Shown here in pieces: positions 53,848 through 56,939 of a stretch of 64,000 bases of DNA. The stretch covers positions 3,680,001 through 3,744,000 of the forward strand of contig OZ242296.1 of assembly GCA_965207735.1 (NCBI GenBank), in the 5' to 3' direction. The stretch comes from Candidatus Versatilivorator sp. Lineage in GTDB: Bacteria; Acidobacteriota; Terriglobia; Versatilivoradales; Versatilivoraceae. The number at the start of each line of letters is the position of its first letter. Position 1 is the stretch's first letter. Both the position numbers and the translations under genes were made by a program. The notes beneath the pieces were generated by a model. That model was not told where the DNA came from, did not search any database, and saw only the letters and a program-made list of their open reading frames with translations.

Positions 53848-54018
53848 ATGCCTCTTAGTCCCGAGTTGCTGGAGATCCTGGTCTGTCCCCTCTGCAAGGA
53901 ATCGGTCAGCCCGACCCCAATGGGCGACGGGCTGAAGTGTCCTCAGTGCAAACGGGTCTACCCCGTGAGAGACGACATCCCGATCATGCTGGTCGATGAG
54001 GCCGAAATCGAGGAGTAA
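53848..54018 (+). CDS. Trm112-like (YcaR) protein
   Basis: LLEILVCPLCK...LKCPQCKRVYPVRDDIPIML.DEA. Confidence 0.9.
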   Translation: MPLSPELLEILVCPLCKESVSPTPMGDGLKCPQCKRVYPVRDDIPIMLVDEAEIEE

Positions 54019-54249
54019 GGAGCGAAATCCTTCCTGTTGTTTTCCGGTTGCCGCAGGTCTTTGCAACCGGTCCCTACCAAGAAGTTTCTGCCGAGCTTGG
54101 CGCTTGAGTCTCTGCGGCATCGCTTCCCGAAAGGAACACTTTCCTCCCTCCCTCGGTGAGAAAGGCAGGCGCGGGTCCGGTGAGCCCTGTTGACAAGCGC
54201 CTCCGGCGATCTTATTTATTCCCCGTACTGGAATTTACAAAGGGAAGAT

Positions 54250-54321
54250 GAGCCTTTTGCAAAATTCCGCCGATAGAGGGAGTAGGGAGTAGGGCTGCAC
54301 GACGAATTTTGCAAAAGGCTC
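54250..54321. mobile_element. 72-bp MITE inserted at the clpB RBS
   Basis: Perfect 18-bp TIR GAGCCTTTTGCAAAATTC / GAATTTTGCAAAAGGCTC; 7-bp direct repeat GGAAGAT at 54243-54249 and 54322-54328. Confidence 0.88.
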
Positions 54322-54332
54322 GGAAGATGCCA

Positions 54333-56939
54333 ATGCGCTATGACAAGCTGACCCTGAAGGCACAGGAAGCTCTGGTTGAATCGGAACGTCTGGCCAGTGA
54401 GCATGCCCATCCGCAAACCGAACCGGAACACCTGTTGCGGGTGCTTCTGGATCAGGCCGATGGAGTCATTCCTCCGGTCCTGAGCAAGTTGGGAGTTGGC
54501 CGGGAAGCGCTGTCGCAGGAAATCGAGAAAGCCCTGGCCAAGCTGCCCACGGTACAGGGTGTTGGAAACCGTCCGATTGCCGGGGTGCTCAACACCATCC
54601 TGGAAGCTGCCTTTCGTCAGGCCGACCGCCTCAAGGACGAGTATGTCAGCACCGAGCACCTGCTGCTGGCCCTCGCCGAAACCAAGGAGTCCGCCACCCA
54701 GCAAATCCTGGCTTCCCAGGGCGTCAATTCCGACAAGATCCTGCAAGCGCTGGTTGAGATTCGCGGTTCACAGCGGGTCACCGACGCCAATCCCGAGGAC
54801 AAATACCAGACGTTGCAACGCTATGCTAGCGACCTTACCGACCTGGCGAGGAAGGGCAAGCTGGATCCGGTCATTGGGAGGGACGAAGAGATCCGCCGGG
54901 TGATTCAGGTTCTGTCCCGGCGGACCAAGAACAATCCCGTTCTGATGGGTGAGCCGGGTGTGGGCAAGACGGCCATTGTCGAAGGTCTGGCTCAGCGCAT
55001 CGTCGCCGGGGATGTTCCCGAGAGCCTCAAGCACAAGCGGCTGGTCTCCCTGGACCTGGGCGCCATGGTTGCCGGAGCCAAGTATAGAGGCGAGTTTGAG
55101 GATCGGTTAAAGGCACTGCTGCGGGAGGTGACGGAAGCCGAGGGGCAGGTGGTCCTGTTTATTGACGAACTGCACACGCTGGTCGGCGCCGGCGCCGCCG
55201 AGGGGGCCGTGGATGCCTCCAACATGCTGAAGCCGGCCCTGGCCCGGGGGGAGCTGCGCTGCATCGGCGCCACCACTCTGAACGAATACAAGAAAACTAT
55301 CGAAAAGGACGCCGCCTTGGAGCGCCGGTTTCAACAGGTGTTCGTGGGGGAACCCGCCGTCGCCGATTCCATTGCGATTTTGCGTGGCCTCAAGGAGCGC
55401 TACGAAGTGCACCACGGCGTCCGGATCAAGGATTCGGCCATCGTGGCTGCGGCGACCCTCTCCGACCGCTATATCGCCGACCGCTTCCTGCCCGACAAGG
55501 CCATCGACCTGGTGGATGAGGCAGCGGCCTCTCTGAGGATGGAGATCGATTCTTTGCCGGTTGAGTTGGATGAAGTGGAGCGGCGAATCCGCCAACTGGA
55601 AATCGAACGACAAGCCCTCAAGAAAGAAGAAGATCAGGCCTCAAAGGAACGGCTGGCTTCCCTGGAGCGTGAGCTGGCCGACCTCAGGGAGAGGTTGGCT
55701 GAAAAGAAAGCCCGCTGGCAGAACGAGCGCGCCTTGATTTCCGGTATCCGAAACCTGAAGGAGAAAATCGAGCAAGCCCGGATCGAGGAGCAGAAGCAGG
55801 AACGGGCCGGGGACCTGGGCAGGGTCGCGGAAATCCGCTACGGATCTCTGGTGGACCTGCAGAAGGAGTTGGATGCCGCCAACCAAAAGCTGGAACAGGT
55901 GCAGCAGTCCAGTCGGATGCTCAAGGAAGAGGTCGATGAGGAAGATATCGCCCAGGTGGTTTCCAGATGGACCGGTATCCCGGTTGCCAGAATGCTGGAA
56001 GGAGAGGTCGGTAAGCTGGTCCACATGGAAGAGAGGCTGGGGCGACAGGTCATCGGCCAGGAAAAAGCTCTGGCCTCGGTTTCCAACGCGATTCGCAGGA
56101 GCCGTGCCGGTCTGCAGGACCAGGACCGACCCATAGGATCCTTCATTTTTCTGGGTCCTACGGGCGTGGGCAAGACCGAGTTGGCGCGAGCTTTGGCCGA
56201 ATTTCTGTTCGACAACCAGAAGGCCATGGTGCGCCTGGACATGTCGGAGTTCATGGAAAAGCATTCGGTGGCGCGGCTCATTGGCGCACCCCCGGGCTAC
56301 GTGGGCTACGAGGAGGGGGGGACGTTGACAGAGGCCGTCAAGCGGAGACCCTATTCCGTGATCCTGTTCGACGAGATAGAGAAAGCCCATCCGGAGGTTT
56401 TCAATCTGCTGCTTCAGATACTGGAAGACGGGCGCTTGACGGACGGAAAGGGGCGAACGGTAGACTTCAAGAATTCGCTGATCATCATGACCTCCAACCT
56501 TGCCGGATCGACAATTCAGGAGATGAACGGCCAAGATCCCAAGGAGATTCAGACTCGGGTCTTCGCGGTGCTGCGTGCCTCCTTCAAGCCCGAGTTTCTG
56601 AATCGCATCGATGACATCATCATCTTCAATGCCTTGGGGCGCAAACAAATCAGTCGGATCGTCGATCTGCAACTGGAGCGGCTCAGATCCCGGTTGGCGC
56701 AGCGCAAGATCGACCTGGAGCTCACCGATCGGGCCAAGGAGGTTCTCTTTCACCAGGGGTACGATCCGGACTATGGGGCTCGCCCGCTCAAGCGTGCGCT
56801 CCAACGCCTCATCCAGGATCCGCTGGCACTCAAGCTGCTGAACGGAGAGGTTCATTCTGGTGATCGTCTCCTGGTGGACGCCGACCCCAAACGAGAGGCA
56901 ATGGTCTTCCAGCCGGCGGTGGTCACCGAGAAAGCCTGA
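54333..56939 (+). CDS. clpB: ATP-dependent disaggregase ClpB
   Basis: [21 protein letters not shown], coiled-coil middle domain, [24 protein letters not shown]; start 54327 or 54333. Confidence 0.97.

What the first reader, a model, noticed from the sequence alone, without database searches (positions are those of the whole stretch)
54243..54335. 72-bp MITE inserted in the clpB Shine-Dalgarno region: candidate acquired RNA thermometer or attenuator
Seen: perfect 18-bp TIRs with an exact GGAAGAT duplication. Removing the element restores AAAGGGAAGATGCCAATG. With it, an AU-rich 18-bp stem ends 11 nt before ATG 54333, only GGAAG remains as SD, and a 14-codon uORF appears (54248-54292). The 36-nt interior holds GGGAGTA heptamers. 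A TTGACA at 54190 suggests the element is transcribed. Inference: a recent insertion that changes translation of a heat-shock gene.
Basis: partly seen in the sequence, partly recalled or inferred. Interest (0 to 1): 0.7.

Follow-up and report, generated by a model that had tools for sequence, protein, structure and literature searches.

The report
Mini-transposon lodged in clpB leader
A 72-base mini-transposon of a family spread through this genome sits just in front of the heat-shock gene clpB and is missing there in related species, but its hairpin is predicted to be far too stable to sense temperature, so it most likely just weakens ClpB synthesis or is tolerated.

Summary
The insertion is real. 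Seven congeners have 64 nt from the -35 box to the clpB ATG; this genome has 143 (64+72+7). None of 13 congeners carries the element there. Its TIR has 113 exact copies, 86 of them on 43 near-identical 1487-bp IS1182-like elements. These make 4-bp duplications (36 of 43); short relatives in congeners show 3-8 bp, so 7 bp is unusual but in range. A strain from another study (one low-depth contig, 97% identical) has the same insertion. The promoter is the conserved hsp20-clpB sigma-70 promoter, so the element is likely transcribed.

The thermometer reading is not supported in silico. The stem (-29.7 kcal/mol) is predicted to hold to 85 C and lies beside the remaining SD, not over it; SD exposure is flat from 10 to 55 C. 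There is no terminator, and the uORF has a 3-nt SD spacing. Best reading: an ordinary MITE in a 5' UTR (like the Correia element at mtrCDE) that likely lowers translation regardless of temperature, in an operon that appears to be decaying in this genus. No expression data were available. Earlier scan notes showed no match by sequence or words.

The parts
54190..54195 (+). -35 box of the ancestral hsp20-clpB sigma-70-type promoter
   Evidence: Conserved in all 13 congeners and in other families of the class
54213..54218 (+). -10 box, 17-nt spacer; here with A instead of the consensus final T
   Evidence: Orthologous promoters in G001, G011, G015, G018, G019, G020, G027, G028, G030 and L041 have the full TAnnnT; 59 of 78 TTGACA-17-TA sites in G000 end in T; missed by the strict scan
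54225..54225 (+). Predicted transcription start (G, 7 nt after the -10 box); inferred, not mapped
   Evidence: G at this position in 12 of 12 genus leaders examined
54219..54246 (+). Native inverted repeat of the ancestral leader; it would pair the original SD only if transcription starts at or before about 54219
   Evidence: Folds in 8 of 8 short congener leaders when taken from -6; one C-G/U-A compensatory pair, weak statistics
54239..54244 (+). Original SD-like AAAGGG, now 88 nt from the clpB ATG and only 3 nt from the uORF ATG
   Evidence: Duplex with the genome's own 16S tail -5.9 kcal/mol
54243..54249 (+). Left copy of the 7-bp target-site duplication
   Evidence: 143 - 64 = 72 + 7
54250..54321 (.). 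72-bp MITE, internally deleted member of an IS1182-like MITE subfamily
54250..54267 (+). Left TIR (18 bp), identical to the TIR of 43 autonomous 1487-bp IS copies
54304..54321 (-). Right TIR (18 bp); contains an SD-like AAAGG at 54314-54318 that is paired in the stem
54322..54328 (+). Right copy of the duplication; supplies the remaining weak SD GGAAG (54322-54326)
   Evidence: Duplex -3.3 kcal/mol; mostly unpaired in predictions
54248..54292 (+). 14-codon uORF created by the insertion; likely not translated
54333..56939 (+). clpB, intact, 868 aa
   Evidence: TIGR03346 1349 bits, cut-off 1232

Best explanation
This is a 72-bp non-autonomous MITE that shares its TIR with the genome's IS1182-like element and was inserted, with a 7-bp duplication, between the promoter and the start codon of clpB, where it is predicted to form a temperature-insensitive hairpin that likely lowers ClpB synthesis rather than sensing heat. 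Shown by sequence: the insertion, the empty site, the family, the split of the original SD from the start codon, the conserved promoter. Inferred: mobilisation in trans by an IS1182-like transposase; transcription from about G54225, which puts the element in the 5' UTR; a stem that stays folded at any growth temperature and abuts the weak leftover SD, shrinking the ribosome's standby region; possible RNase III cutting of the stem, as for Correia elements. Also inferred: it is tolerated because selection on this operon is relaxed in the genus, and heat control is transcriptional.
For: TIR: 113 exact copies; 43 IS copies differ by at most 1 base. Transposase: DDE_Tnp_1 + DUF772, best NCBIfam model IS1182, 8 of 12 plasmid hits annotated IS1182. 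The element aligns with the two ends of 185-189-bp MITEs, and kin occur in 12 of 13 congeners. Empty site in 13 of 13 congeners. Stem -29.7 kcal/mol at 37 C, pairing probability 0.95 at 55 C and 0.75 at 85 C; at least 0.89 at 55 C in 24 of 24 folding settings. SD unpaired 0.71-0.75 from 10 to 55 C (start 54225). Opening -15..+13 costs 12.6-19.0 kcal/mol against 4.7-10.8 for the empty allele at 37 C, and the filled allele at 45 C still costs more than the empty one at 20 C in 3 of 3 settings. SD duplex falls from -5.9 to -3.3. RNase III is present. hsp20 is lost or truncated in 11 of 13 congeners, and clpB is frameshifted or N-terminally deleted in 3 of the 6 congeners checked. HrcA, two CIRCE sites and an HspR-like gene are present.
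Against: No expression data: all functional steps rest on folding models. If only SD..+13 must be open, the filled allele is as open as or more open than the empty one in 21 of 24 settings, and structures upstream of the SD need not be unfolded (PMC5435973, passages), so the effect may be small. With four standby bases included, the predicted 20-to-45 C gain is larger for the filled allele in 2 of 3 settings (17 vs 8; 37 vs 8), so some graded temperature effect is not excluded. clpB itself is intact, and the insertion is shared with a 97%-identical strain, which a strongly harmful insertion might not be. The two frameshifts in congeners could be sequencing errors. The start site is inferred.
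Confidence: 0.6

Rival explanations
1. Neutral passenger: the hairpin lies wholly 5' of the leftover SD, the 30S subunit binds beside it without unfolding it, and ClpB output barely changes (a 5' hairpin might even stabilise the mRNA).
For: Opening SD..+13 alone is no costlier with the element in 21 of 24 settings. The 7-bp duplication preserved GGAAG at its original spacing. Family members sit 14-40 nt before other long ORFs in G000 and in congeners. Shared between strains, with a possible substitution in the other strain's left TIR (depth 2.4).
Against: SD duplex is predicted 2.6 kcal/mol weaker, and no single-stranded base separates stem and SD.
Confidence: 0.22
2. Acquired RNA thermometer: warming frays the foot of the stem and frees the standby site or the AAAGG in the right TIR, so that ClpB translation rises with heat.
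For: The element sits in a heat-shock leader. An SD-like AAAGG is paired inside the right TIR, 8 nt from an in-frame ATG at 54327. The predicted temperature gain is larger than the empty allele's in 2 of 3 settings when standby bases count.
Against: The outer four pairs stay at 0.97-1.0 up to 55 C. [quoted passage not shown] The leftover SD is not masked. The only competing fold is favoured in the cold (6 of 24 settings at 10 C) and gives way to the TIR stem on warming. No Rfam match.
Confidence: 0.08
3. De-repression: transcription starts at least 6 nt further upstream, the ancestral hairpin masks the SD in the empty allele (a native thermometer), and the duplication hands clpB a second SD copy outside that hairpin, so that thermal control is lost.
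For: From 54219 the empty allele's SD is 0.07-0.20 unpaired (10-55 C) against 0.55-0.60 with the element. The hairpin folds in 8 of 8 short congener leaders, with one compensatory pair. The leader descends from the hsp20 leader, and small heat-shock genes often carry thermometers (PMC4152365).
Against: The 5' arm lies within 6 nt of the -10 box, upstream of the likely start. Covariation rests on 9 related sequences (6 of 500 shuffles reach the score, which relatedness can give), and inner pairs often break.
Confidence: 0.06
4. uORF-coupled or bistable attenuator: ribosomes on the 14-codon uORF, or a leader:left-TIR helix formed during transcription, keep the stem open and set clpB translation.
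For: A leader:left-TIR helix (54230-54244 with 54253-54268, -12.2 kcal/mol) is predicted to form before the right TIR is made.
Against: uORF SD spacing is 3 nt, and opening its start costs 9.7-11.2 kcal/mol at 37 C. With the helix trapped, opening the clpB site still costs 11.9-17.0. No terminator on either strand. The leader's likeness to the TIR is matched by 84 of 5000 random 40-mers and 6 of 86 IS flanks.
Confidence: 0.04

Closest known systems
Correia element (CREE/NEMIS) of Neisseria, especially the copy between the mtrCDE promoter and genes
   Same: Short TIR-bounded non-autonomous element with length variants made by internal deletion, lying between a native promoter and the gene, so that its TIRs form a hairpin in the mRNA; RNase III cuts such hairpins (PMC2649163, PMC10969869; passages).
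   Different: Different TIR and transposase source. Here the insertion falls inside the SD itself and duplicates 7 bp. No processing or expression effect has been shown here.
IS1182-family insertion sequences (e.g. ISUnCu17, ISPse1) and their derived MITEs
   Same: DDE transposase with DUF772; 44-54% identity to proteins annotated IS1182; 18-bp TIR, 1487 bp, 4-bp duplication (ISPse1: 16-bp IR, 4-bp DR, PMC3281130 table passage).
   Different: Scores 117 bits on NF033551, below its cut-off of 270; 391 aa against a 488-position model. The clpB copy has a 7-bp duplication, not 4.
Zipper-type RNA thermometers of heat-shock genes (ROSE, fourU, cyanobacterial hsp17)
   Same: A hairpin in the 5' UTR of a heat-shock gene next to the ribosome-binding site.
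   Different: Those mask the SD and open on warming (PMC4152365). This stem lies 5' of the usable SD, is perfect, and is predicted to persist to 85 C.

Membership tests
Prokaryotic MITE | Short, no transposase, terminal inverted repeats | tested here: met
   72 bp, perfect 18-bp TIRs
Prokaryotic MITE | Target-site duplication and an empty site in relatives | tested here: met
   7-bp duplication; leader 79 nt shorter in 7 congeners; element absent in 13 of 13
Prokaryotic MITE | TIR shared with an autonomous IS in the same genome | tested here: met
   43 copies of a 1487-bp IS with the identical TIR
Prokaryotic MITE | Dispersed related copies | tested here: met
   Same-subfamily elements of 60-189 bp in G000 and 12 of 13 congeners; this exact 72-mer is single-copy
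Prokaryotic MITE | Mobilisation in trans shown experimentally | not testable with these tools
   Inferred from the shared TIR only
IS1182 family (autonomous partner) | DDE transposase with IS1182 as closest family | tested here: met
   Best of 7 NCBIfam models; Pfam DDE_Tnp_1 and DUF772 over cut-off; 8 of 12 plasmid hits named IS1182
IS1182 family (autonomous partner) | Score over the curated cut-off of NF033551 | tested here: not met
   117.2 bits vs 270; hence called IS1182-like
RNA thermometer | Lies in the 5' UTR | tested here: inconclusive
   Conserved promoter implies so; start site not mapped
RNA thermometer | SD masked by pairing at low temperature | tested here: not met
   Leftover GGAAG 0.71-0.75 unpaired at 10-55 C from start 54225; only the TIR's own AAAGG is paired, and it stays paired
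RNA thermometer | Structure opens in the physiological range | tested here: not met
   In silico only: stem 0.95 paired at 55 C, 0.75 at 85 C
RNA thermometer | Heat-dependent translation in reporters or toeprints | not testable with these tools
Attenuator | Intrinsic terminator with U-tract and an anti-terminator | tested here: not met
   0 terminators; no T-run after the stem on either strand
Attenuator | Translated leader peptide that controls the fold | tested here: inconclusive
   uORF exists, but SD spacing is 3 nt and the start is predicted buried; translation untested

The most novel reading that the evidence does not exclude
A transposon footprint rewired the thermal control of a heat-shock gene: by landing in the SD with an unusually long 7-bp duplication, the MITE left one SD copy in the ancestral leader hairpin, gave clpB a second copy beside its own stem, and added a competing leader:TIR helix, so that ClpB translation now follows temperature differently from the empty allele, and the change was kept across strains.
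Probability: 0.12. Interest if true: 0.6.

Novelty: new member of a known kind. Interest (0 to 1): 0.27.

Why it matters
As it stands it is a clean, small example of a known process: a MITE entering a 5' UTR during an IS expansion. It gives a natural filled/empty allele pair, exact to the base, for measuring what a perfect hairpin directly against a weak SD does to translation. It also fits a stepwise decay of the hsp20-clpB operon in this genus. If reporters showed a temperature response that depends on the element, it would be a transposon-born thermosensor. Four searches of the held library (listings only) showed no title or abstract start describing one, but the library lacks most subscription papers.

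Tried and rejected
Rfam scan of 53900-54500: one chance hit only. Consensus promoter scan: missed the clpB promoter because its -10 lacks the final T; found 0 terminators. Sequencing runs: no RNA holder listed, so no start-site or expression test. No empty-site joint in contigs of X1/X2, but contigs drop rare variants; X5 and X6 did not cover the leader, and the close-strain piece in X3 ends at 54175. Metagenome pattern scan: 9 loci, only 2 were clpB (L041, L042), both without the element. Idea that the duplication is 4 bp plus three carried bases: the same letters, but the 79-nt length difference and 5- and 8-bp duplications in kin favour 7 bp. Idea that the heptamers are a designed motif: they align with the parent's subterminal sequence. 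Idea that the transposase targeted a pseudo-TIR in the leader: likeness not exceptional. A sigma-32-type reading of the promoter (consensus recalled): spacing too short. CIRCE and HAIR consensus scans found no site at clpB. The ORF-proximity count (18 of 218 TIR ends) has only an unmatched control (600 of 3000 random positions), so no enrichment or depletion is claimed. Earlier scan notes by sequence and by words: nothing.

Full report
Observation. The TIRs at 54250-54267 and 54304-54321 are perfect, with a 36-nt interior and a 7-bp direct repeat on both sides. The stem ends 11 nt before ATG 54333 of an intact ClpB (TIGR03346 over cut-off). The uORF has 14 codons. A public contig spans 53700-55200 with no difference, though it may be this assembly's own source.

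What the element is. The 18-mer has 113 exact and 218 near (up to 3 mismatches) copies in the 5.26-Mb genome. Pairing them gave 78 pairs, 2 of them nested mis-pairings: 43 elements of 1487 bp and 33 shorter ones. The 43 differ by at most one base and encode a 391-aa DDE transposase with DDE_Tnp_1 and DUF772. Its best NCBIfam model is IS1182, below cut-off (117 vs 270 bits), and 8 of 12 plasmid hits are annotated IS1182 (44-54% identity); I call it IS1182-like. The same IS is 99% identical in G002 and about 80-84% in other complete congeners. The 72-mer is single-copy but aligns with the left about 45 and right about 28 bases of 185-189-bp MITEs, and 12 of 13 congeners hold kin. It is an internally deleted member of a genus-wide subfamily, and the heptamers are diverged subterminal sequence.

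The duplication. 36 of 43 IS copies have 4-bp duplications and 7 have none; 7 bp is the longest in G000. Among 17 short relatives from 19 congener loci (19 pairs printed, 2 overlapping mis-pairings dropped, 2 loci without a pair) the lengths were 4 (6), 5 (3), 3 (1), 8 (1) and none (6). So 7 bp is uncommon but in range. It may come from a diverged transposase (remnants at 78-82% identity exist; inference). A 4-bp duplication at the same cut would have removed the GGAAG from clpB, so survival of this allele may reflect filtering by selection (inference).

Empty site and age. None of 13 congeners has the element in the clpB leader. Seven have 64 nt from the -35 box to the ATG and one has 58; G000 has 143 = 64+72+7. 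In run X4 (another study and host label) one 230-bp contig at depth 2.4 covers 54102-54331 with 7 differences and no gap, so it carries the insertion. The left junction is well bridged, the right by only 10 letters; two of the differences recur in run X3. The insertion thus likely predates the split of these strains and is older than the burst of identical ISs.

Is it transcribed? In G000, TTGACA is followed by TA mostly at spacers 16-18, and 59 of 78 spacer-17 sites end in T. The clpB site ends in A, but orthologous promoters in G001, G011, seven more distant genomes and L041 have the full TAnnnT. The motif of this promoter recurs only once in G000, before the other hsp20. The promoter is that of an ancestral hsp20-clpB operon: hsp20 is intact in G001 and G009, a stub in G002, G005 and G011, and cleanly deleted in G000 and eight others. 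G at +7 is invariant in 12 of 12 leaders, so I infer a start near 54225 and a 108-nt leader holding the element. No start site could be mapped.

Thermometer test (in silico). Thermometers mask the SD in the cold and open on warming, and a bulge is critical in the hsp17 case (PMC4152365, passages). The stem here is -29.7 kcal/mol at 37 C, 0.95 paired at 55 C and 0.75 at 85 C. Over 3 energy sets, 2 starts and 4 lengths it is at least 0.89 formed at 55 C in 24 of 24 settings and at least 0.90 at 45 C in 19 of 24. The leftover SD is 0.71-0.75 unpaired from 10 to 55 C. A competing leader:left-TIR helix wins at 10 C in 6 of 24 settings and loses on warming; trapping it does not open the clpB site (11.9-17.0 kcal/mol). 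Against my reading: the right TIR carries a paired AAAGG 8 nt from an in-frame ATG at 54327, and with four standby bases counted the predicted 20-to-45 C gain is larger for the filled allele in 2 of 3 settings. Even so, the filled allele at 45 C stays costlier than the empty allele at 20 C in 3 of 3.

Attenuator test. No terminator was found, and no T-run follows the stem on either strand. The uORF's SD ends 3 nt before its ATG, opening its start costs 9.7-11.2 kcal/mol, and it ends out of frame 40 nt before clpB.

Likely effect. The SD duplex with the genome's own 16S tail falls from -5.9 to -3.3 kcal/mol. Opening -15..+13 costs 12.6-19.0 against 4.7-10.8 kcal/mol, but opening SD..+13 alone is no costlier in 21 of 24 settings. 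Structures upstream of the SD need not unfold and act by shrinking the landing pad (PMC5435973, passages). I therefore expect a moderate, temperature-independent drop (0.6) or near-neutrality (0.22). RNase III is encoded, and Correia hairpins in mRNA are its substrates, including the one between the mtrCDE promoter and genes (PMC2649163, PMC10969869; passages); processing here is untested. Tolerance fits a decaying operon: besides hsp20 loss, clpB is frameshifted in G009 and G001 (possibly sequencing errors) and lacks its N-domain in G004, 3 of the 6 congeners checked. HrcA, two CIRCE sites and an HspR-like regulator (102.7 bits, cut-off 105) offer transcriptional heat control, but no consensus operator was found at G000's clpB. 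Family members lie close to other start codons too, so the position is not unique.

A native hairpin. Bases 54219-54246 form an inverted repeat that would pair the original SD. It folds in 8 of 8 short congener leaders taken from -6 and has one C-G/U-A pair, with weak statistics on 9 related sequences. From the inferred start it cannot form, and SDs are then 0.58-0.85 unpaired.

Known kinds and literature seen. Closest: the Correia element at mtrCDE; IS1182-like ISs (ISPse1 has a 4-bp repeat, PMC3281130, table passage). Papers were read as keyword passages only: PMC5678879, PMC10969869, PMC3184786, PMC5435973, PMC7464140, PMC2649163, PMC3281130, PMC10474464, PMC4152365. No supplements were opened; none is needed for these claims. 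Searches for a MITE-derived thermometer showed none in their listings. The organism's lineage and growth temperature were not determined by my calls; an earlier scan note calls it a sponge-type Acidobacterium (unchecked).

Verdict. A real MITE insertion in a heat-shock leader, new member of a known kind; thermometer or attenuator unlikely; interest 0.27.

Noticed in passing
window 54190-54249 and L005-L016, L065: Stepwise loss of hsp20 from an ancestral hsp20-clpB operon in the genus: intact (G001, G009), 22-codon stub (G005), start-less stubs (G002, G011), clean deletion fusing the hsp20 promoter and leader to clpB (G000 and eight others). G000's sister on the clpB tree, G002, keeps a stub, so the clean deletion arose twice or moved by recombination.
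   Followed up: partly
L015-L021, L026, L029, L041, L069 (promoter spacers); window 54189-54209: A HAIR-like (HspR operator) right arm overlaps the promoter spacer: 4-5 of 7 matches in 10 promoters from basal congeners, other families and G000's second hsp20 (also 4 in L007), against 2 of 59 background promoters reaching 4; only 1 of 7 at G000's clpB. G000 has dnaJ followed by an HspR-like gene. It suggests an HspR regulon in this class whose operator has decayed at clpB in this clade.
   Followed up: partly
L063:4199-4245, L064:4190-4197, L065: clpB is frameshifted in G009 (near residue 600-615) and G001 (near 685) and has an in-frame loss of its N-terminal domain in G004; not checked against reads.
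   Followed up: no
G000:C1:105789-107275 (L001:190-1676) and 42 other sites: A very recent IS burst: 43 copies differing by at most one base, 99% identical to copies in G002; several insert into the same A-rich repeated target and next to or inside older MITEs.
   Followed up: partly
G000 genome-wide; L044-L062: The shortest MITEs (60-100 bp) all have different interiors, as if made again and again by internal deletion of 170-190-bp parents rather than copied from one master; several other subfamilies (about 238, 309 and 336 bp) share the same TIR.
   Followed up: partly
G000:C1:718036 and 4146338: Two CIRCE matches (1 and 0 mismatches); the downstream genes were not identified.
   Followed up: no
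window 53848-54018: Small Trm112-like gene (PF03966) directly upstream of the clpB promoter, conserved in most congeners.
   Followed up: no
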